Part shown: one piece after another, positions 12,300 to 49,206 of the stretch
How the letters are laid out: each line of letters begins with the position of its first letter
How positions within the stretch are numbered: the stretch's first letter is position 1
Virus record (IMG/VR): IMGVR_UViG_3300030419_000057
Coordinates: 1-60,885 of that record
From: a virus
Lineage: Duplodnaviria; Caudoviricetes
DNA length: 60,885 nucleotides
Strand: one strand, 5' to 3'
Notes under the pieces: generated by a model
The model's database searches: none
What the model was told of the DNA's origin: nothing
The model's input: only the letters and a program-made list of their open reading frames with translations
Made by a program: the position numbers and the translations under genes

Positions 12300-12706
12300 C
12301 TACTCTTTCTCATGTTCTCTCTGGCTACACCCTTGAACTTTTCTGCTGACCTAGCAGCACCTAGTCCTAGTAATGATAGAGTAAGGGTCATTAACCCTTC
12401 AGTAGGTATAACAGGAATAACTATGTCTGCACCTGATACAGCTATAGCCCATACGAATACAGGTTGGAATACAAACTGCCATCCTAATCCAAATGCACAT
12501 ATCCACATGATAGCTGGCCTACTTCCACTAACAAAGATAGAAGGATGCTTTGCCTGTTCTATATTAGCCTGTGCTTGAGCAAGGTCAAGGCTAACCATCT
12601 GTTGTTTAAGTTCTGCATTAAGTTTAGTCTTTAAGTCTTTATCTTCTACAAACTTATCTAAAACTTTTCCTGCTACCCCTACAATACTATCTGCTAATCC
12701 TAACAT
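12296..12706 (-). CDS. Holin (GTA 3TM holin-like)
   Basis: LDKFVEDKD, ANIEQAKH.SIFVSGSRPAIMW, LLGLGAARSAEKFKG. Confidence 0.75.
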   Translation of the reverse strand: MLGLADSIVGVAGKVLDKFVEDKDLKTKLNAELKQQMVSLDLAQAQANIEQAKHPSIFVSGSRPAIMWICAFGLGWQFVFQPVFVWAIAVSGADIVIPVIPTEGLMTLTLSLLGLGAARSAEKFKGVARENMRKSR

Positions 12707-14982
12707 GGTAGAAACTCCTTATAATGTTTAGTCTTACTCATACGTGAATTATTCCACAAAGTTTTTACAAGTGTGTTCTCTCCATGAACAGTGATCTCCA
12801 TATCTACATCATCACGTTCAAAGAGTTTTTCACAGTCCTGTGCCATAGCAAGTAACTCACCTGTAGTCCAGAACTTATGATCATCTACGGTCACATTCAT
12901 ATACTTAGGTCTGCCATCTCTCTCTTTCTTTTTCTTCTCTTTGTCTGATGGCTCTGGTATAATACAGTCATAACCAAACAAGTCAAAGGTTCTAAATCCT
13001 AGTATATGCATCATCCCTATAGCTCTCATAGCTGCACACGTTCCTCCTGTAATGAAGGTAGTATCAGGTGGTATATCAAACTCTTCAGAAACTTGTATTG
13101 TATTATCTCTTACAGGTCTATTCTTATCTGTAGATGCACGTAAAGTTTCTGAAAAGGCGTGCCATCCCCACAGATTAGCTCCCTGTTTTTTGAGCAGCCT
13201 TGTTACTGAGGGGTTAGTCATAGATGCTAAAAAGAATATAGTATTCTTATCTACCTTATTAAACAAACTCTTACGAATAATTCCATGCGTAGACTTACCG
13301 CTTAGTGGTCTTGGGTCTAGTATAACACATCCCCACGGTTGTATGCCATGTTTTAAAAGATGGGGGTATGAATGTTTAACACAGACTACACGAGTATTAT
13401 CTTTACGGCTTAGTTCTTTTACATGGCTCCAGTCTGTACTGGCTCCTCCTGATACGATAATTACTCTATCCGAATGTGCTCTACCCTTTTCTAACCAATT
13501 GTCCATAAGTTTAATATTCTTTTTAATATTACTTACAAGGTTCTGATCAGGTACACAGTCTTTAGGAGTGACATGAATAGGAACTTGCATAACCTTATTA
13601 GTTAAGTCTGGAATATCAGGATCATTAAGTATTACTGCGAGGTGAGTAAACCCTCCCTCACGTACCCCATCACTGGATGGTAGTACATACTTACGATTGG
13701 TTGTCTGTTCAATAATTCTATTTACTTCTTGGAACTCTGGTTCTACACAGTTACCATCCTTATCAGCCGTAAAGAAATCATCAAAGACCAATACAGGAAT
13801 ATGTTTAAGTTTACCATAATCATTCTGAACTGTAGCTGTACTATGTCCACCGTCAATGTAAGCTAGGTCTGCATTTATATCATTCTCTAATGTTTGGTTA
13901 GTATCTCCTTTTATTAATTCAAAAGTAAAAGTTTTATTCCTTTCTTTCATCTTAGCTTTGAACTCATTAAGATGTTTAGTAATATCTTTTACTGATACAA
14001 TCTTTTTAGCGTTAAGTTCTTTAGCACTAAGTTCTTCATTACCATCTTCAAATAGATCATGTCCTATATAATGAAAGTCATCTCTATTTTCAAAGGAAGC
14101 AAGAGCCATTTCAATAGCACGTTGTCCTATCCATGTACCTGTTTCTACTACCCTAGCTGGCTGGTACTGACGTATAATGTCTGCTAATTGTTTATACCGT
14201 TGTGCTGGAGGAATAGGTTTACCTTGTACTTTTTCTTTACGATCTCCTTTAAGATGTTCCATAAATTCACTTAGAGGAAAGGACTCAAAGGCTTGCTTAC
14301 CTTTTACAAGGTCTGTTATATCTAAGTGACCAGTGAAGTCTTGTACTCTCATACCATGAGCACGATAGATAGTTAGTAGTCTTTCAAAGACAAACCCATC
14401 ATGCCACTCACGATAGTTGACTACCTCACCAGAGTTGTAGGCTCCACGTAAATCACCTAGTAAATCTAAGGCTCCACGATATTTAAGATTAAATGCCATG
14501 AAGGATGTTTCACTGTAGTCAAAATGTTTTCTTCCTAAGAAAGCTAACTCTGCTTTAGGATTAAGAAATTTATCTAAGTCTTTGGAAGTAAAGTCTTTCT
14601 TAGTAAACGTATCTGCATCTAACCAGATACACCAGCCTGGATCACGGCTGTCATCAGCTAATTCAAATGCAAATTCTGTTAAAGCAAAAACTTTATGACA
14701 AAACTTTATAGCATCTAGTCTAAAGTTATACTGTAATTGTCCACCTTCTGTACCATTATGTTTTTTAAATGTTTCTCTAAAGGCAGTCATCTCTGTAAGA
14801 AGATTAAGATTACGATATTCTATATGAGGAGGACGAGGAACATCATGCTTATCTATATCAAAGTCATGGTAGTATACAGTCAACTTGAGTGGCTCTTTCC
14901 AGTGTCGTGCAGCAGTCTCAAGCATCTTCATACCATAAAGTTTTAGACCCTCTTCATTCATAGAGGTTATAAAGTTATACAT
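12700..14982 (-). CDS. Three-domain protein: GT-A glycosyltransferase-like, class I SAM methyltransferase, MptE/DUF115(Maf)-like
   Basis: KFCHKVFA..WLDAD (DxD); VVETGT, YIDGGHS, VFDD; IVSGGAS, ILDPR, LGFRTFDLFGYD. Confidence 0.65.
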   Translation of the reverse strand: MYNFITSMNEEGLKLYGMKMLETAARHWKEPLKLTVYYHDFDIDKHDVPRPPHIEYRNLNLLTEMTAFRETFKKHNGTEGGQLQYNFRLDAIKFCHKVFALTEFAFELADDSRDPGWCIWLDADTFTKKDFTSKDLDKFLNPKAELAFLGRKHFDYSETSFMAFNLKYRGALDLLGDLRGAYNSGEVVNYREWHDGFVFERLLTIYRAHGMRVQDFTGHLDITDLVKGKQAFESFPLSEFMEHLKGDRKEKVQGKPIPPAQRYKQLADIIRQYQPARVVETGTWIGQRAIEMALASFENRDDFHYIGHDLFEDGNEELSAKELNAKKIVSVKDITKHLNEFKAKMKERNKTFTFELIKGDTNQTLENDINADLAYIDGGHSTATVQNDYGKLKHIPVLVFDDFFTADKDGNCVEPEFQEVNRIIEQTTNRKYVLPSSDGVREGGFTHLAVILNDPDIPDLTNKVMQVPIHVTPKDCVPDQNLVSNIKKNIKLMDNWLEKGRAHSDRVIIVSGGASTDWSHVKELSRKDNTRVVCVKHSYPHLLKHGIQPWGCVILDPRPLSGKSTHGIIRKSLFNKVDKNTIFFLASMTNPSVTRLLKKQGANLWGWHAFSETLRASTDKNRPVRDNTIQVSEEFDIPPDTTFITGGTCAAMRAIGMMHILGFRTFDLFGYDCIIPEPSDKEKKKKERDGRPKYMNVTVDDHKFWTTGELLAMAQDCEKLFERDDVDMEITVHGENTLVKTLWNNSRMSKTKHYKEFLPC

Positions 14983-17067: not shown

Positions 17068-18746
17068 TCCTTCTGGCCTGTTGCAGGATCAATGAAGCAA
17101 GCTGCTCCCTCATCTTCCTTAGTAGCTGGCTCACTCTTATTAAGAATACCATACCTCTTACCAGCTAGTCTAAACGTAGTAACTCCTTTTAACTTTCCTT
17201 TCCATCCTTTTATATAAACATCTTTGAACTCTTCAAAGGTTACATTATCACCTACATTAATAGTCTTGGATACAGCACTGTCTATGAATGGTTGTATAGC
17301 AACCTGCATCTTTAGATGATCCTCTACTGTTAGGTCTTCAGTTGTCTCTGCTTTAATACCTAGATTATTATAAACATAATCTTGTAACTTTACAATCTGA
17401 GCACCTCCCTCTTGGATTACAGTACGGTCTACTTCATGCATAAAGACAGGCTCAATACCACTACTAATATTATCAGCCGTGAAACTAATTGTACCAGTAG
17501 GAGCAATACTAGTTAGATGACTGTTGCGTATACCAGACTTAGCTATCCTATCTTGTAGGTCTGGTGGAAGTTTCTTTGCATACCCACTCTTTAAGTATTC
17601 AGGAGTGTAAAGAGGAAATGCTCCCTTCTCTTTAGCTAGGTTACAACTAGCTTCTACGGCTGTATAAGATAAAACTCTGCCTATCTTTCTTGTAAAGCGT
17701 ACAGCCTCATCTGATCCATACCGTAGACCTACCATCGTAAGACAGTTAGCTAGGCCAGTAATACCTAATCCCATCCTCCTTTTATTCTTCGCTTCAGTCT
17801 CTTGATCTGGTAGTGGATAACGAGTACGGTCAATAACATTGTCCATTGCACGTACCACTGAAAAAATATCTTCTTTAAATATATCAAAGTTAAACACCTT
17901 ATTCTCTACATATTTAACTAAGTTAAAACTACCTAGTAAACAAGCACCAAACGGTGGAAGGGGTTGCTCACCACATGGGTTGGTAGCTTCAATAGTTTCA
18001 CAATACCAGAGGGGATTGTCTTGGTTTATTCTATCTATAAATAGAACCCCAGGTTCAGCCCACTCCCAATTAGCTCTCATAATTTCATCCCATAAAGCTA
18101 CAGCATTTATTTCTTTGTATACTGTATCATTAAACTTTAATTGGAATGGAGTATTCTTTATTACAGCTTGCATAAACTCATCAGTAACACCTACTGATAT
18201 ATTAAAGTTAGTAAGTTTATCTTGGTTCTGCTTGGCCCTGATAAATTGTTCTATGTCTGGATGGTCTACACGTAAGACCCCCATCATCGCACCACGCCTA
18301 TGACCAGCAGAAACTATCGTTCTACAAACCGCATCAAATATGTGCATAAAAGATACAGGCCCACTAGCGGAACTATCAAGGCTAACAATCCTGTCACCAT
18401 CAGGACGTATGCGAGAAAAGTCATACCCAATTCCCCCACCTCTCCGCATCGTTTCAGCAGCTTCAGTAGCCCTTGCCATAATGGATTCCATACTATCCTC
18501 AATGACTCCTGATACAAAACAGTTATATGCAGTAACATCTCGTGGACTCCCCATTGCTGATTGAACTCTACCTGCTGGCATAAACCTTTGATTTAAAAAG
18601 ATTTCTTTTATTTCTTGCCTATGATCTTCATCGTCTGACATAGCAGACGCATTACGATTAGCTGCTTCTTCAAAGCTCTCATTTGGTAAACGATATTTAG
18701 TTGCGTGTAATTCTTCACAGGCTTGAACTTGTGGACCGTACCCCAT
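17058..18746 (-). CDS. nrdJ: Ribonucleotide reductase, class II (adenosylcobalamin-dependent)
   Basis: AYNCFV, RRGAMM, TNPCGEQPL, CLLGS, IAPTGTIS and C-terminal cysteines; no beta-subunit gene seen. Confidence 0.88.
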   Translation of the reverse strand: MGYGPQVQACEELHATKYRLPNESFEEAANRNASAMSDDEDHRQEIKEIFLNQRFMPAGRVQSAMGSPRDVTAYNCFVSGVIEDSMESIMARATEAAETMRRGGGIGYDFSRIRPDGDRIVSLDSSASGPVSFMHIFDAVCRTIVSAGHRRGAMMGVLRVDHPDIEQFIRAKQNQDKLTNFNISVGVTDEFMQAVIKNTPFQLKFNDTVYKEINAVALWDEIMRANWEWAEPGVLFIDRINQDNPLWYCETIEATNPCGEQPLPPFGACLLGSFNLVKYVENKVFNFDIFKEDIFSVVRAMDNVIDRTRYPLPDQETEAKNKRRMGLGITGLANCLTMVGLRYGSDEAVRFTRKIGRVLSYTAVEASCNLAKEKGAFPLYTPEYLKSGYAKKLPPDLQDRIAKSGIRNSHLTSIAPTGTISFTADNISSGIEPVFMHEVDRTVIQEGGAQIVKLQDYVYNNLGIKAETTEDLTVEDHLKMQVAIQPFIDSAVSKTINVGDNVTFEEFKDVYIKGWKGKLKGVTTFRLAGKRYGILNKSEPATKEDEGAACFIDPATGQKECG

Positions 18747-31378: not shown

Positions 31379-31990
31379 TTAATATTTCTTGACTTTTTCT
31401 ACAATCGTATCCGTAGTGCTATGATTATAACATAGTAAACAGTCTTTGCACTTTTGTCCAGTACAATTTTGTTGATCTACATGCTCATGCTCCAAGACAT
31501 TATTAAATGTCTTATCAAAGTATAGTGGTGGAGTAGCCATGATGCTACTAATAGTAGGGTTGCTATAGATTACAATCAAGTTCTTTGGCTTTTCAACATA
31601 GTCAAAAAGTCTTTTAATATAATCTTTACGCTTTGTCCACAAAGCAAAGTTACAATGCGGATTATGCTTAACGATAGCTACAAGGTTAGCTAAATGTTGC
31701 ATATTAATTAGCTCACCATGAGCATCAAACCTAAAGAAAGCATCCAGTATTACTGGCAATTCTTCTTTGCTCAAAGTCTTGGAACTTAGAAGATCACTGT
31801 TACGCTGCAAAGCAGCAGCCATATTCTTTCTATATCCTTTAAGCATGGTATGGCTGTAACAATGCTTGCAAATTGTTTCCTTCTTTGCTTTGTTCATCTT
31901 GATGCAAAAAGGATTAGTCAAAGTATTAGTGCTAATAGCTTTAAAACCGTCCAGCTTACCAGTCATTTTACTAATGTGAACATTAGTCAT
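31379..31990 (-). CDS. Cys-rich gp88-like / radical-SAM-related protein
   Basis: SKMTGK, C..CKHCY, FRFDAHGEL, ALWTKR, PKNL, C-terminal C...CKDCLLC. Confidence 0.55.
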   Translation of the reverse strand: MTNVHISKMTGKLDGFKAISTNTLTNPFCIKMNKAKKETICKHCYSHTMLKGYRKNMAAALQRNSDLLSSKTLSKEELPVILDAFFRFDAHGELINMQHLANLVAIVKHNPHCNFALWTKRKDYIKRLFDYVEKPKNLIVIYSNPTISSIMATPPLYFDKTFNNVLEHEHVDQQNCTGQKCKDCLLCYNHSTTDTIVEKVKKY

Positions 31991-32545: not shown

Positions 32546-32746
32546 TTATTTCTCCGATCCAAAAGTATTAATCCATTCTTGAGGTGTAACACCTGTCTTT
32601 AAAAATTCTCTGTCATTAGCAGAGACATTAGGCATAGCATCTTGAATAAGAGTACCACTTTCCCAATCGTCAATCTGTGATTGAGTAACAGGAATATCCA
32701 TTGTATTCCACTCGCCACTAAACATACTTTTCTTTGTAATAAGCAT
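32546..32746 (-). CDS. Conserved small phage protein
   Basis: ITKKSMFSG..NTMDIPVT...LIQDAMPNVS..DREFLKTGVTPQEW. Confidence 0.7.
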   Translation of the reverse strand: MLITKKSMFSGEWNTMDIPVTQSQIDDWESGTLIQDAMPNVSANDREFLKTGVTPQEWINTFGSEK

Positions 32747-32769
32747 AGCTTTTATCCTTTGACAAAGTT

Positions 32770-32955
32770 AAATTGGTTAAGGGGTACACTTCTAAGGCCT
32801 TATCTACAGATAAGGTAAATCTTACATTTCATCGTGACCCCTCTTACGGCTACCAGTACCGACACGTAACAGTGTTAGTCTTTTGTTTGTGAGTGCTACC
32901 TCACTTCTCATCATCGGAGGTTAGTCTCCGACTAGTCCCTGCTACAGGACACGTT
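32770..32955 (-). ncRNA. Structured ncRNA segment with repeated GUAGC-loop hairpins
   Basis: GUCC-UGUAGCAG-GGAC, GUGAG-GUAGCA-CUCAC, UAC-UGGUAGCC-GUA and GUCGGAG-ACUAAC-CUCCGAU. Confidence 0.5.
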
Positions 32956-32964
32956 CAAGAAAAA

Positions 32965-33053
32965 GGTGAGAGGGCAGGGAATTGAACCCTGCGTTAGCCT
33001 ACCCTAATAGACCTACAGTGTTTTAGGGACACTGTAAACCAGCCATGCCTCTC
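32965..33053 (-). ncRNA. tRNA-like RNA (non-canonical: no D-stem, 8-bp arm with CCCUAAA loop, long variable arm)
   Basis: Acceptor GAGAGG/CCUCUC-ACC, T-arm GCAGGG-UUCAAUU-CCCUGC, UACAGUGU/ACACUGUA, GGUCUA/UAGGCU. Confidence 0.7.
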
Positions 33054-33060
33054 GTAAATC

Positions 33061-33105
33061 TTCTTATGTGAAGCAGATACCCCGTTGATATCTGCCCCAT
33101 AAAAA
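33061..33105 (-). repeat. Second hairpin family, copy A (GG/UUCA internal loop)
   Basis: UUUUUAUG-GG-GCAGAUAU...GUAUCUGC-UUCA-CAUAAGAA, just after a stop codon. Confidence 0.65.
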
Positions 33106-33107
33106 GA

Positions 33108-33275
33108 CTATGCAATAGTCACAAGACCTTGCTTGTCTGTTAGACGGCTCATGCTATAGAACGGCATGAACAAGTATAGAGAACGCTTTCCAAAATGAAT
33201 CTGGAAAGATTTAGAACCACGACCAAAACCGTAACGGGTTTTCTTTGAACGCTTCCGATAAATATATTTAACCAT
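33108..33275 (-). CDS. 55-aa basic protein (not in ORF track)
   Basis: AAGGAGG after hairpin copy 5; MVKYIYRKRSKKTRYGFGRGSKSFQIHFGKRSLY... Confidence 0.6.
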   Translation of the reverse strand: MVKYIYRKRSKKTRYGFGRGSKSFQIHFGKRSLYLFMPFYSMSRLTDKQGLVTIA

Positions 33276-33294
33276 GAGCTATCCAGCCCTCCTT

Positions 33295-33361
33295 ATATAA
33301 GAAACTCTAAGTGGTGTTCGTAAGAACTCACACCACTAAGAGTATCTATATTAACAACAAG
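33295..33361 (-). repeat. Dispersed hairpin element, copy 5
   Basis: ACUCU-U-AGUGGU-GUGA-GUUC-UUAC-GAAC-ACCACU-U-AGAGU, then SD. Confidence 0.85.
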
Positions 33362-33823: not shown

Positions 33824-33875
33824 TATGTCCTTGTGTGAAGCAGACAGCCTAAACTGTCTACCCCACAAAGACATA
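33824..33875 (-). repeat. Second hairpin family, copy B (GG/UUCA internal loop)
   Basis: UAUGUCUUUGUG-GG-GUAGACAG...CUGUCUGC-UUCA-CACAAGGACAUA, just after a stop codon. Confidence 0.65.
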
Positions 33876-34111: not shown

Positions 34112-34166
34112 TATAAGATAGTCTAAGTGATGTTCGCAAGAACTCACATCACTAAGACAATCTATA
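34112..34166 (-). repeat. Dispersed hairpin element, copy 6
   Basis: GUCU-U-AGUGAU-GUGA-GUUC-UUGC-GAAC-AUCACU-U-AGAC. Confidence 0.85.
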
Positions 34167-34263
34167 TGGTTTGGAAAAACGTCATTAGTCCAGCGTATGC
34201 CATGCTGAATAGCATAGGCCAGACTATGACAAACTTTGCAAAGATACAAAGATCAGAGATCAT
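34162..34263 (-). CDS. 33-aa hydrophobic peptide (not in ORF track)
   Basis: MISDLCIFAKFVIVWPMLFSMAYAGLMTFFQTI*; overlaps upstream stop; no clear SD. Confidence 0.35.
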   Translation of the reverse strand: MISDLCIFAKFVIVWPMLFSMAYAGLMTFFQTI

Positions 34264-34581: not shown

Positions 34582-34601
34582 GGCATCCTTTGCTATGTAA
34601 A

Positions 34602-34646
34602 GGTTACTAAGTGTAGTTCGTAAGAACTTCACTACACTAAGTAACC
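34602..34646 (-). repeat. Dispersed hairpin element, copy 7
   Basis: GGUUACU-U-AGUGUA-GUGAA-GUUC-UUAC-GAAC-UACACU-U-AGUAACC. Confidence 0.85.
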
Positions 34647-48085: not shown

Positions 48086-48511
48086 ATGAAAATATTAGGA
48101 ATACTATTAAGTATGTTTATACTAATAGGATGTAAAACAACAGACCCCGTAGTAGTTAAACCAAAAGTAGAAAAGAGTCAAGAGAAAAAAGAAGAAATTG
48201 TAATAGGTATTATGACAGTATCCTGTATTGAATTAAGTGCTATACAAGATTTATCTAATGGAGATAGAAACTCTATGGTAGATGTGCAACTTAGATTGCA
48301 ACAGCATATGGCAGCAGGTAAATGTGGTATTCATAAACCTAGAATAAGAGTACCTCTTGAAACTTTAGTTGATGAATACGTAGATTTTATGGGAATAGAA
48401 ACTCAAATATGGAAAGTAAAAAATTTAAATTTATGGACCTTAATTGCTAAAGGTACAGTAGAATATAAAAAATCACCCAAACAAGACGAGACACTTAATA
48501 TAGCTATATAA
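48086..48511 (+). CDS. Putative lipoprotein
   Basis: MKILGILLSMFILIG-C lipobox-like signal. Confidence 0.6.
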   Translation: MKILGILLSMFILIGCKTTDPVVVKPKVEKSQEKKEEIVIGIMTVSCIELSAIQDLSNGDRNSMVDVQLRLQQHMAAGKCGIHKPRIRVPLETLVDEYVDFMGIETQIWKVKNLNLWTLIAKGTVEYKKSPKQDETLNIAI

Positions 48512-48531
48512 ACTTAAATAAAAGGAATAAC

Positions 48532-49206
48532 ATGGCACTCTCAGGTACATACACATTTGACTTAGATATTGATGCTGTTATTCAGGAGGCCACTGAAATG
48601 ATTGGTGGTGGGGAAATCCTGGGACATGAACCTGCATCGGCACGTAGGTCACTTAATTTACTACTAGCAGACTGGCAGAATCAAGGAATACTCTTATGGT
48701 CTACAGATGTAAGTACGATTACTGTAGAAGTAAGTACAACTACGTATGACCTGAGTAGTGCTACTATTGATGTTATGGAAGCTGTCCTTAACAGGGATAA
48801 TACTGATCTCCAGATGACACGTATATCCTTTGAAGAATATTTAAAAATACCAACTAAGGGACAGACAGGTAGACCATCACAGTATACAGTTAAACGTAAT
48901 CAAAGTTATCCTACTATGTATGTGTGGCCTTTACCAGAAAATAGTACAGATGTTATTAAAGTAGAACGTATAGGATTTCTTCAAGATATAAATAAATCTG
49001 CTGGTCAGAATGCAGATATACCTCGTAGATTTTTACCATGTTTAACTACAGGACTAGCATACTATATGTCAATGAAAAGACCTGGAGTAGATGCTAATAG
49101 AATAGCAATGTTAAAAACAGTATATGGTGAACAATTTAAAAATGCTATGGAAGAGGATAAGGAGAGAGCAAGTTTGTATTTTAAACCTAAGTTAGGTTAT
49201 GTATAA
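48532..49206 (+). CDS. Tail tubular / adaptor-like virion protein
   Basis: SARRSLNLLLADWQNQG, GRPSQY, VWPLP, RFLPCLTTGLAYY. Confidence 0.65.
   Translation: MALSGTYTFDLDIDAVIQEATEMIGGGEILGHEPASARRSLNLLLADWQNQGILLWSTDVSTITVEVSTTTYDLSSATIDVMEAVLNRDNTDLQMTRISFEEYLKIPTKGQTGRPSQYTVKRNQSYPTMYVWPLPENSTDVIKVERIGFLQDINKSAGQNADIPRRFLPCLTTGLAYYMSMKRPGVDANRIAMLKTVYGEQFKNAMEEDKERASLYFKPKLGYV

What the first reader, a model, noticed from the sequence alone, without database searches (positions are those of the whole stretch)
32965..33053. Non-canonical tRNA mimic with a CUA (amber-reading) loop triplet and no D-stem
Seen (minus strand, 89 nt): GAGAGG CAUGGCUGGUU UACAGUGU-CCCUAAA-ACACUGUA GGUCUA-UUAGGG-UAGGCU AAC GCAGGG-UUCAAUU-CCCUGC CCUCUC A CC. 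Acceptor plus T stems total 12 bp (6+6 instead of 7+5), the T-loop is canonical-like, the D region is an unpaired loop containing GG, the anticodon-like arm has 8 bp, and its loop has C rather than U at the position-33 equivalent. Established: a D-loop without a stem is a feature of the tmRNA tRNA-like domain, and tRNA-Pyl has a CUA anticodon with a lengthened stem. Inference: probably not an ordinary decoding tRNA; it could be a tRNA or tmRNA-domain decoy (for anticodon nucleases, SmpB, EF-Tu or a synthetase) or an atypical amber suppressor. The genome itself uses TAG as a stop.
Basis: partly seen in the sequence, partly recalled or inferred. Interest (0 to 1): 0.82.

Follow-up and report, generated by a model that had tools for sequence, protein, structure and literature searches.

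The report
Phage tRNA mimic with matching loops
This is a small tRNA-shaped RNA gene in a marine phage, one of a previously unnamed family whose two side hairpins carry mutually complementary loops, so its apparent amber anticodon is a structural pairing partner and not a codon reader.

Summary
It is real: covariance models built from it find relatives in 40 of 58 viral or genomic loci and in 47 of 80 metagenome loci. Rfam 15 has no matching family.

All members share:
- a 6-bp acceptor stem stacked on a 6-bp T arm with a UUCRAUU loop;
- an unpaired D-like linker with invariant GG;
- usually an A discriminator;
- two adjacent hairpins, H1 and H2.

The main new result is that the H1 loop is Watson-Crick complementary to the H2 loop, and the two covary. 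The window has CCCUAA/UUAGGG. Relatives have CCCUAG/CUAGGG, UCUCAC/GUGAGA, CUGUAC/GUACAG, CUAUAC/GUAUAG and others.

CUA is therefore half of a loop-loop helix. It occurs in only 5 of 62 distinct sequences, and several relatives have 6-nt loops. TAG is an ordinary stop here (3 of 48 ORFs).

Most likely this is a non-decoding tRNA mimic cut out of early transcripts by tRNA-processing enzymes. Its target is unknown, as is whether the loops pair within one molecule or between molecules. It is an accessory element: the closest complete relative lacks it.

The parts
32965..33053 (-). whole tRNA-like RNA (TLS), 89 nt
   Evidence: Sequence; MFE fold with z -3.12; model R2 scores it 99.2 bits; homologs with covariation.
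33048..33053 (-). acceptor stem 5' strand GAGAGG; pairs with 32968-32973
   Evidence: 6 pairs, 100% paired in 7 of 7 sequences; 4 of 6 pairs change on both sides. G1 and G6 are invariant in 16 sequences.
33037..33047 (-). unpaired D-like linker CAUGGCUGGUU with GG at 33043-33044
   Evidence: G10 and G11 are invariant in 16 aligned members, and neither was part of the search pattern. Family consensus is YNUGG-N3-5-GUGWAU.
   Evidence: Stem covaries in relatives, e.g. UGUAAUGU/ACAUUGCA and UACAGUAU/AUACUGUA. Many relatives carry 30-65-nt insertions in this loop, on the 5' side of L1.
   Evidence: 97.6% of cells paired; 5 of 6 pairs change on both sides.
33023..33028 (-). L1 bases CCCUAA that pair with L2 UUAGGG (33002-33007): the loop-loop helix
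   Evidence: Alignment columns 30-35 with 51-56: 100% paired in 7 of 7 sequences; 5 of 6 pairs change on both sides. A Watson-Crick run of at least 5 occurs in 31 of 33 distinct viral-set sequences and 22 of 29 new metagenome sequences. In the cross-pairing control, 20 of 306 pairings reach 5 or more.
32993..32995 (-). AAC spacer between H2 and the T stem
   Evidence: AAY in nearly all members, but it was part of the search pattern, so its conservation is partly by construction.
32974..32992 (-). T arm: 6-bp stem GCAGGG/CCCUGC with loop UUCAAUU
   Evidence: 100% paired; 3 of 6 pairs change on both sides. The loop and two stem pairs were fixed by the search pattern.
32965..32973 (-). acceptor 3' strand CCUCUC, discriminator A, then CC (next base is U, so CCA is not fully encoded)
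   Evidence: Sequence. In the viral set almost all correctly aligned members have A after the acceptor strand (L094 has G); endings include ACC, ACU, AUC, AAC and AGC. The metagenome set adds a few G or C.
32774..33054 (.). 281-bp segment (TLS plus a 3' tail) present here and in L089 but absent from the closest relative L002; bounded by the 5-nt direct repeat TAAAT (+ strand)
   Evidence: blastn and MAFFT comparison of window and L002.
32774..32954 (-). neighbouring, separate conserved structured motif ('tail'), about 180 nt; not part of the TLS
   Evidence: Found without any TLS in L183 and L184, and with one in L089. RNAalifold: 41 pairs, 3 with compensatory change, 4 sequences.

Best explanation
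The element is a genuine, conserved RNA gene, but it is a non-decoding tRNA mimic. It belongs to a previously unnamed family found almost only in marine phage contigs.

Shown:
- Members share a 6-bp acceptor stem stacked directly on a 6-bp T arm with a canonical T loop.
- They have an unpaired D-like linker with invariant GG and usually an A discriminator.
- They have two adjacent hairpins (H1, H2; 0-1 nt apart) whose loops are Watson-Crick complementary to each other and covary.
- CUA is three of the six L1 bases (CCCUAA) that match L2 (UUAGGG).
- The element lies between genes, on the same strand as the early and replication genes. It is an accessory, absent from close relatives.

Inferred:
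- It is transcribed with the early operon, released by RNase P and the 3' tRNA-processing enzymes, and probably given CCA.
- It acts through its acceptor/T-arm/elbow as a substrate, decoy or sponge for a host factor that recognises that part of a tRNA.
- The loop-loop helix closes off the part that reads codons in a real tRNA. It does this either by a fold within one molecule or by joining molecules.
For: - **Fold and statistics:**
- **Family size:** the pattern scan gave 51 stretches in viral contigs. Model R2 gave 44 matches in 40 of 58 sources, 33 of them distinct. It gave 49 matches in 47 of 80 metagenome loci, 29 of them new and distinct.
- **Covariation:** 91.5% of 224 cells are paired, against 71.9% in shuffles (0 of 500 shuffles reach the observed value) and 42-51% when partners are slid. 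Acceptor, T arm and loop-loop helix are each 100% paired. The loop-loop helix has 5 of 6 pairs changed on both sides.
- **Loop-loop complementarity:** a Watson-Crick run of at least 6 occurs in 20 of 33 sequences and a run of 5 in 11 of 33. In the cross-pairing control, 5 of 306 pairings reach 6 and 20 of 306 reach 5.
- **Independent test set:** among sequences fetched after the idea was formed, 15 of 29 have a run of at least 6 and 7 of 29 have a run of 5. New compensatory pairs include CUAUAC/GUAUAG, CUGCAC/GUGCAG, UCUUAC/GUAAGA and UCGUACU/AGUACGA.
- **Conserved GG:** G10 and G11 are invariant although they were not in the search pattern.
- **Strand:** G.U pairs such as the first pair of H2 (6 of 7 sequences) show that the transcribed strand is the one under selection.
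- **Position:** 24 of 30 elements are not spanned by a same-strand ORF. The downstream ORF starts within 13-37 nt in 13 of 30. All lie on the same strand as the nearest DNA polymerase or primase homologs.
- **Not decoding:** no D stem, C at position 33, CUA in 5 of 62 distinct sequences, and 6-nt loops in several members. There is no TAG recoding.
- **Accessory:** it is absent from the complete closest relative and from 4 cultured or named relatives. It is present in 5 of 80 TerL-relative loci.
Against: - There is no expression or processing evidence of any kind. No RNA run holds the sequence, which is uninformative.
- The function is pure inference. No conserved protein partner or neighbouring gene was found across subtypes.
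- CCA is only partly encoded, and no aminoacylation identity set is conserved. G3.U70 appears only sporadically.
- The family was collected with a pattern that fixes UAAYG, GGUUCRAUUCC and CC. Conservation of those bases is therefore by construction, and the family may be wider or more varied.
- CM-derived alignments lean towards the model's stems. The loop-loop helix, however, was not in the model.
- Cis versus trans pairing is unresolved. With an intact 8-bp H1, a 6-7-nt loop and a 0-1-nt H1-H2 linker, cis kissing looks sterically impossible (my inference from A-form geometry).
- Against trans pairing, some loop pairs are very weak as free duplexes, e.g. UUUAAG/CUUAAA at -1.6 kcal/mol. That fits a cis contact better.
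Confidence: 0.7

Rival explanations
1. The RNA self-assembles. H1 and H2 stack end to end as a dumbbell of about 14 bp, as the D and anticodon stems do in tRNA, with L1 and L2 at opposite ends. L1 of one molecule kisses L2 of the next. This gives dimers, rings or filaments that display tRNA acceptor arms.
For: - Seven or more members have a fully covarying 8-bp H1 closed by a 6-7-nt loop, a 6-bp H2 with a 6-nt loop, and a 0-1-nt linker. With these dimensions the two loops of one molecule cannot meet (geometric inference).
- Covarying loop pairs once read as tertiary contacts turned out to be intermolecular in ROOL (PMC12286853, passages read).
- phi29 pRNA multimerises through complementary CE and D loops (PMC2241910, abstract seen in the listing).
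- Two paralogs in one contig (L099) share the same CUGUAC/GUACAG pair although their stems differ.
Against: - Some loop pairs are weak as free duplexes, -1.6 to -4.3 kcal/mol.
- About a third of members place L1 in a large multi-branched loop, where a cis pseudoknot is feasible.
- There are no physical data.
- The whole L099 subfamily shares that loop pair, so the paralog argument is weak.
Confidence: 0.25
2. It is a cis-acting punctuation signal, not a trans-acting RNA. The tRNA shape recruits RNase P and 3' processing enzymes to cut the early polycistronic transcript, setting the ends and stability of the flanking mRNAs.
For: - The elements are tightly embedded between same-strand ORFs. The upstream ORF ends within 1-130 nt in most cases, and the downstream ORF starts within 13-37 nt in 13 of 30.
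- They are always co-directional with neighbouring genes.
- Only L087 showed a sigma-70-like promoter upstream, by eye. The scan placed no promoter immediately upstream of the window's copy; its one minus-strand site upstream lies about 290 nt away at 33369-33341.
Against: - It does not explain the conserved, covarying loop-loop complementarity or the GG elbow beyond what RNase P needs.
- The element is dispensable in near-identical genomes with the same flanking genes, and its position varies between subtypes.
Confidence: 0.2
3. It is an atypical amber-suppressor (or other decoding) tRNA that lacks a D stem and has a long variable arm.
For: - Within the closest subfamily the loop fits the pattern 32-CC-CUA-R-A-38.
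- ARAGORN calls it tRNA(cta).
- It has G1-C72, A73 and a long extra arm, as in bacterial class II tRNAs (recalled).
- A relative (L060) carries a true tRNA-Tyr(GTA) at a similar position.
Against: - CUA occurs in only 5 of 62 distinct sequences, and several members have 6-nt loops.
- C replaces the near-universal U33, the stem is 8 bp, and there is no D stem.
- All six loop bases covary with the neighbouring loop.
- There is no in-frame TAG, and TAG ends 3 of 48 genes, including the DNA polymerase.
- It scores below every Rfam tRNA threshold.
Confidence: 0.03
4. It is a DNA-level element: an attP copy of a host tRNA gene, a replication or packaging signal, or an inverted-repeat protein-binding site (CCCTAA-N15-TTAGGG).
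For: - L1 and L2 form an inverted repeat in duplex DNA.
- Phages often carry tRNA-gene fragments at attP (recalled).
- The window's copy lies 2.7 kb from the terminase gene, near the strand switch.
Against: - The 5' acceptor strand is present and covaries with the 3' strand, so this is not a 3' tRNA fragment.
- Conserved G.U pairs are strand-specific.
- The pattern occurs in only 47 stretches of 596 Gb of prokaryote genomes, and only one clear member was found there, in L132, a 10.5-kb MAG contig. No host tRNA-like target is evident.
- No integrase appeared among the 26 distinct proteins scanned, though not all ORFs were scanned.
- Position relative to the terminase gene is not conserved.
Confidence: 0.03

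Closest known systems
Class II and D-armless tRNAs (bacterial tRNA-Leu/Ser/Tyr; mitochondrial tRNA-Ser lacking the D arm)
   Same: 12-bp acceptor/T coaxial stack, canonical T loop, GG available for the elbow, A73, and a long extra hairpin 5' of the T arm. Features of the known tRNAs are recalled.
   Different: The stack is split 6+6, not 7+5, and there is no D stem. The 'anticodon' loop varies in sequence and length and pairs with the extra arm's loop. It falls below Rfam tRNA thresholds.
tmRNA tRNA-like domain
   Same: An acceptor/T-arm mimic with a stemless D-loop analogue containing GG. The Rfam alpha_tmRNA consensus shows GGGGgCGAAAuAGGAUUCGACG, compared with YNUGG here.
   Different: There is no mRNA-like domain, tag ORF or pseudoknots, and G3.U70 is not conserved. 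The molecule is a closed four-way junction. No Rfam tmRNA match appears even at E up to 10, and ARAGORN finds no tmRNA at default settings.
phi29 prohead RNA (pRNA)
   Same: A small phage RNA with two loops that are complementary to each other and whose pairing is kept across relatives despite sequence change. In pRNA the pairing is intermolecular (PMC2241910, abstract in the listing).
   Different: There is no sequence or Rfam match. This element has a four-way junction with a tRNA-like arm, where pRNA has a three-way junction (recalled). This phage has a standard large terminase. No link to packaging is shown.
ROOL / GOLLD phage-associated RNAs
   Same: Phage-borne, associated with the tRNA world, and carrying covarying kissing loops that proved to be quaternary contacts (PMC12286853, passages read).
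   Different: Those RNAs are 500-800+ nt with many domains, whereas this one is 89-144 nt and itself tRNA-shaped. No homology was found.
Bacterial Y RNA-like YrlA and mascRNA-type tRNA mimics
   Same: Non-decoding RNAs that mimic the tRNA T arm and elbow and are handled by tRNA enzymes (PMC4201824, abstract in the listing).
   Different: In YrlA the ends emerge from the Ro-binding stem, not from the acceptor stem (recalled). There is no YrlA match, and mascRNA scores 18.3 bits against a threshold of 42.5.
Candidate structured RNAs predicted in IMG/VR (10,006 csRNAs, some tRNA-like)
   Same: Same data source and same kind of object (PMC10690425; abstract and passages read).
   Different: The five tRNA-like candidates named in the text overlap ARAGORN calls for Tyr, Asp, Cys and Arg. 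No kissing loops are mentioned (0 occurrences of 'kissing'). The supplementary lists could not be opened, so this family may or may not be among the candidates.

Membership tests
canonical decoding tRNA (Rfam RF00005 / cloverleaf) | D stem of 3-4 bp | tested here: not met
   11 nt unpaired between the acceptor and the first hairpin. ARAGORN's D arm is forced and mismatched.
canonical decoding tRNA (Rfam RF00005 / cloverleaf) | 7-nt anticodon loop with U33, and an anticodon conserved among orthologs | tested here: not met
   C at position 33. Loop sequence and length vary, and CUA occurs in 5 of 62 distinct sequences.
canonical decoding tRNA (Rfam RF00005 / cloverleaf) | 12-bp acceptor/T stack with a T-loop consensus | tested here: met
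   6+6 bp, both helices 100% paired in 7 of 7 sequences, loop UUCRAUU. The split is 6/6 rather than 7/5.
canonical decoding tRNA (Rfam RF00005 / cloverleaf) | score at or above the Rfam gathering threshold | tested here: not met
   No match at gathering thresholds in the window or in 13 loci holding members. The best clan match is tRNA-Sec at 21.2 bits against 47.
amber suppressor tRNA / tRNA-Pyl | genome needs TAG read as sense (in-frame TAG in genes) | tested here: not met
   Genes are intact under code 11. TAG terminates 3 of 48 ORFs.
amber suppressor tRNA / tRNA-Pyl | tRNA-Pyl shape: D stem with a small D loop, 6-bp anticodon stem, 3-nt variable loop (recalled) | tested here: not met
   No D stem, an 8-bp stem under the CUA loop, and an 18-nt extra hairpin. 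ARAGORN's 'Pyl' label reflects only the cta triplet.
tmRNA | tRNA-like domain joined to an mRNA-like tag-coding domain; G3.U70 | tested here: not met
   Closed 89-nt molecule with G3-C70. No tmRNA match.
tmRNA | stemless D-loop analogue with GG contacting the T loop | tested here: inconclusive
   The sequence feature is present and GG is invariant. The tertiary contact cannot be tested with these tools.
phi29-type pRNA | two loops complementary between molecules, forming a ring on the portal | not testable with these tools
   Loop complementarity and covariation are shown. Whether it is intermolecular, and any link to the portal, are unknown. No Rfam match.
YrlA / bacterial Y RNA | Ro60-binding stem formed by the 5' and 3' ends, with a tRNA-like module at the other end (recalled) | tested here: not met
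   The ends form the acceptor stem. No Rfam match at E up to 10.
new phage tRNA-like family defined here (model R2) | 6/6 acceptor-T stack, GG linker, H1 and H2 with complementary loops, AAY spacer | tested here: met
   The window scores 99.2 bits and was one of the seven sequences the model was built from, so its match is by construction. All features are present.

The most novel reading that the evidence does not exclude
This would be a natural, minimal self-assembling RNA. Each roughly 90-nt molecule is a tRNA acceptor arm mounted on a two-ended kissing-loop dumbbell. Copies join L1 to L2 into dimers, rings or filaments that present many tRNA 3' ends at once. It would be a small phage counterpart of pRNA rings and ROOL/GOLLD cages, used to trap or organise a host tRNA-binding factor.
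Probability: 0.22. Interest if true: 0.88.

Novelty: new variant of a known kind. Interest (0 to 1): 0.62.

Why it matters
- **Annotation.** ARAGORN labels members of this family as tRNA-Pyl(cta), tRNA-Val(cac) or tRNA with a two-base anticodon. In phage genomics a 'suppressor tRNA' call is often taken as a sign of stop-codon recoding. Here that inference would be wrong.
- **Biology.** It adds a compact, widespread marine-phage RNA family, not in Rfam 15, that keeps the acceptor/T-arm/elbow of tRNA and replaces the decoding part with a closed loop-loop module. This points to a host factor that reads that face of tRNA as the target. The factor could be a processing enzyme, an acceptor-end toxin or another defence.
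- **Structure.** The dozens of compensatory loop-loop variants are a ready natural test set. They could show whether small RNAs use kissing loops for quaternary assembly, a question opened by the recent ROOL/GOLLD/OLE structures.

Tried and rejected
- **Exact match to the T arm and acceptor.** A 26-nt exact match found nothing in viral contigs. blastn of the element against 80 TerL-relative loci found only the upstream flank. blastn against the phage collection found nothing.
- **'Short 72-nt forms'.** With R2 they proved to be the 3' parts of 120-144-nt members that have a large insertion in the H1 loop, so I dropped that reading.
- **Expression.** No RNA holder is listed. Contigs of 4 DNA runs are fragmentary. 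Contigs in X2 and X4 cover the element. Contigs in X6 break at 33055/33057 and at 32956, each at depth below 5, so this is only a weak hint that the TLS and the tail are separate modules.
- **Dimer modelling.** RNAcofold of two copies cannot represent kissing loops and gave only a trivial acceptor-swap dimer.
- **attP idea.** No integrase appeared among the 26 distinct proteins scanned, and no host counterpart was found in the genome collection. Not every ORF was scanned.
- **Conserved partner gene.** A GP88/DUF5131 gene lies 0.5-1 kb downstream in the CCCUAA subtype (window, L089, L083, L090) but not in other subtypes.
- **Literature.** Searches for a described equivalent returned none. The supplements of PMC10690425 could not be read.
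Full report
**Observation.** The window is a complete 60,885-bp IMG/VR virus record. It carries a large terminase, portal, DNA polymerase, primase/helicase and ribonucleotide reductase. Its nearest cultured kin are Pelagibacter phages HTVC023P and HTVC027P, at about 40% TerL identity.

ARAGORN reports one gene, 'tRNA-Pyl(cta)' at 32968-33064. Its drawing needs a 5' extension, a mismatched acceptor and a forced D arm. Rfam 15 finds nothing at gathering thresholds. In E-value mode over 32700-33300 the best relevant match is tRNA-Sec at 21.2 bits against a threshold of 47, with the D stem deleted in the alignment.

**No recoding.** Sixty ORFs of at least 100 aa tile the genome under code 11. Reading TAG as Gln adds only overlapping or slightly extended frames. 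Of 48 non-overlapping ORFs, 36 end in TAA, 9 in TGA and 3 in TAG, including the DNA polymerase.

**An accessory insertion.** TerL found 476 relatives among 479 candidate stretches, and 80 loci were kept. None of the 80 holds this element by blastn. L002 (TerL 97%) and L004 match only the 64-65 nt upstream of it. Aligning the window with L002 shows that window 32774-33054 (281 bp) is missing from L002, with TAAAT on both sides of the gap. The whole L002 record is complete at 59,046 bp and has no copy anywhere. Neither do HTVC023P, HTVC027P, phage 023Pt_psg01 or DSL-LC04: 0 of 5 records with model R2.

**A family.**
- A single-sequence model (R1) gave weak hits on the same strand in five TerL-relative loci.
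- A degenerate pattern over the spacer and T arm gave 16 stretches and then, when loosened, 51 stretches in viral contigs.
- The same pattern gave only 47 stretches in 596 Gb of prokaryote genomes. Of those, only L132, a 10.5-kb contig of a Saprospiraceae MAG, is a clear member at 50 bits. L165 is doubtful at 38 bits.
- Model R2, built from seven sequences, gave 44 matches in 40 of 58 sources, 33 of them distinct.
- R2 found the element in 5 of 80 TerL-relative loci.
- R2 gave 49 matches in 47 of the 80 metagenome loci kept.
- No Rfam family reaches threshold in 13 loci that hold members.
- Caveat: the pattern fixes UAAYG, GGUUCRAUUCC and CC. Invariance of those bases is therefore by construction, and the true family may be wider.

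**Anatomy.** All members share the same plan:
- a purine-rich 6-bp acceptor stem;
- a linker YNUGG-N3-5-GUGWAU;
- hairpin H1, 5-8 bp, often with a 30-65-nt insertion in its loop;
- 0-1 nt;
- hairpin H2, 6 bp with a 6-7-nt loop;
- the spacer AAY;
- a 6-bp T stem with loop UUCRAUU;
- the acceptor 3' strand;
- usually A, followed by CC, CU, UC and similar.

G1, G6, G10 and G11 are invariant in 16 aligned members although none was in the pattern.

On the seven-sequence MAFFT alignment, 91.5% of 224 cells pair. Shuffles give 71.9% (0 of 500 reach the observed value), and slid partners give 42-51%. Acceptor and T arm are 100% paired and H2 is 97.6% paired. H1 scores 67.9% only because three sequences have a 6-nt loop that shifts the register by one column.

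**The key result.** The loop of H1 (L1) is complementary to the loop of H2 (L2), and the two covary. On the seven-sequence alignment the six L1-L2 columns are 100% paired, and 5 of the 6 pairs change on both sides.

Observed pairs include:
- CCCUAA/UUAGGG (window)
- CCCUAG/CUAGGG
- UUUAAG/CUUAAA
- UCUCAC/GUGAGA
- UGUGAC/GUCACA
- CUAGAC/GUCUAG
- CUGUAC/GUACAG
- UUACAC/GUGUAA
- CAUCAC/GUGAUG
- CUACAC/GUGUAG

Of 33 distinct sequences, 20 have a Watson-Crick run of at least 6 and 11 have a run of 5. The other two are a mis-aligned hit (L105, which by hand gives AUCGGA/UCCGGU with one G.U) and a weak hit (L112). When L1 of one type is paired with L2 of another, a run of 6 or more occurs in 5 of 306 pairings and a run of 5 or more in 20 of 306. 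An earlier, cruder version of the test gave the same picture.

The metagenome set was fetched after the idea was formed and serves as a test set. Of 29 new distinct sequences:
- 15 have a run of at least 6 and 7 have a run of 5;
- 4 have a run of 4, of which L208 is 6 with one G.U and L210 and L230 are truncated hits that really carry CUGCAC/GUGCAG;
- 3 weak hits have none.

New compensatory variants within one subfamily are CUGUAC/GUACAG, CUAUAC/GUAUAG and CUGCAC/GUGCAG.

CUA is part of L1. It occurs in 5 of 62 distinct sequences (window, L089, L090, L083, L087). Several members have 6-nt loops. ARAGORN reads two other members as '(cac)' and as a two-base anticodon. A decoy for anticodon nucleases is unlikely for the same reason.

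**Context.** Elements lie between genes, on the same strand as the early and replication genes, at different sites in different subtypes. Of 30 elements, 24 are not spanned by a same-strand ORF, and in 13 the downstream ORF starts within 13-37 nt. Trailers are A/U-rich. One relative (L087) has TTGACA-17-TACTAT about 40 nt upstream, seen by eye.

**Cis or trans?** With an intact, covarying 8-bp H1, a 6-7-nt loop, a 6-nt L2 and 0-1 nt between the hairpins, the two loops of one molecule cannot meet. If H1 stacks on H2, as the D stem stacks on the anticodon stem, they sit at opposite ends of a roughly 14-bp rod. This is my inference from helix geometry, not a computation. That favours pairing between molecules.

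There is precedent. A covarying kissing loop in ROOL proved to be quaternary (PMC12286853, passages read). phi29 pRNA multimerises through complementary loops (PMC2241910, abstract in the listing).

Two things count against this. About a third of members hold L1 in a large branched loop, where a cis pseudoknot is possible. Some pairs are weak as free duplexes, -1.6 to -8.0 kcal/mol. I leave the question open.

**Most likely mechanism.** The conserved parts (acceptor stem, T arm, GG, discriminator) are those read by RNase P, 3' processing and CCA-adding enzymes and other acceptor-side tRNA binders. That is established knowledge, recalled and not tested here. I infer a non-decoding tRNA mimic that is released from early transcripts and acts as a substrate, decoy or sponge for such a factor. 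The loop-loop module replaces the decoding end.

Its patchy distribution among near-identical genomes and its place among small, fast-changing early genes suit an accessory host-interaction function better than an essential processing signal. A punctuation role is the main conventional rival. Nothing here shows expression. No RNA run is listed, and the DNA contigs add little.

**Comparison with known families and novelty.** The element is not a member of the tRNA, tRNA-Pyl, tRNA-Sec, tmRNA, YrlA, mascRNA or pRNA families by the tests listed. It works like a tRNA-like structure and shares the stemless D-loop analogue with the tmRNA tRNA-like domain (for the tmRNA consensus).

Five literature searches found no description. 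A 2023 catalogue of 10,006 candidate viral RNAs from IMG/VR may contain it. I rate it a new variant of a known kind.

**The neighbouring tail.** Window 32774-32954 (-) is a second conserved, hairpin-rich motif. It occurs with a TLS in L089 and without one in L183 and L184. It is therefore a separate module that happens to share the 281-bp insertion.

Noticed in passing
window 32774-32954 (-): A second conserved structured motif of about 180 nt lies directly 3' of the tRNA-like RNA. It also occurs in L089 (with a TLS) and in L183 and L184 (without one), right after a gene end. RNAalifold gives 41 pairs, 3 of them compensatory, from only 4 sequences. There is no Rfam match.
   Followed up: partly
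window 32774-33054 versus L002 4122-4126: A 281-bp presence/absence difference between two complete, closely related phage genomes, bounded by the 5-nt direct repeat TAAAT. This looks like moron-type gain or loss by microhomology.
   Followed up: partly
window 33296-33351 and 34112-34167: Two copies (88% identical) of a 56-nt intergenic repeat that contains a long hairpin, with compensatory differences between the copies. Related loci match a third place near 34586-34645. This may be an early-region regulatory or terminator element.
   Followed up: no
window 33058-33082 and 33825-33849: A 25-nt repeat (80% identical). One copy lies immediately upstream of the tRNA-like RNA. It may be a shared signal.
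   Followed up: no
L106 2141-2569 (-): A related phage contig that also holds a family member encodes an alphaproteobacterial-type two-piece tmRNA (alpha_tmRNA, 136 bits). Two-piece tmRNAs in marine phages are already described (PMC9004378, passages read). This hints at an alphaproteobacterial host for that relative.
   Followed up: partly
L060 4338-4423 (-): A TerL relative carries a regular tRNA-Tyr(GTA) with encoded CCA, about 2.6 kb upstream of the terminase gene on the opposite strand. That is a position like the window's element, but the two are not alike in sequence by eye; no alignment was run.
   Followed up: partly
window 31379-31990 (-): A 203-aa Cys-rich protein of the GP88/DUF5131 family lies 0.5-1 kb downstream of the CCCUAA-type element here and in L089, L083 and L090, but not near other subtypes.
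   Followed up: partly
window 12700-14982 (-): A 760-aa protein combines a methyltransferase domain with an MptE-like (6-hydroxymethylpterin diphosphokinase-like) domain. It has no PHROG function.
   Followed up: no
window 17602-17678 (-) and 48165-48602 (+): At a lowered threshold ARAGORN also calls a tRNA-Tyr(gta) inside the ribonucleotide reductase gene and a permuted tmRNA inside structural genes. Both are probably false positives, and neither appears at default settings.
   Followed up: no
L109 7210-7302 and 7307-7401; L099 1252-1383 and 2580-2703; L104 3851-3940 and 4786-4880: Some contigs carry two family members, in tandem in L109. The two L099 copies share the same loop pair although their stems differ.
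   Followed up: partly
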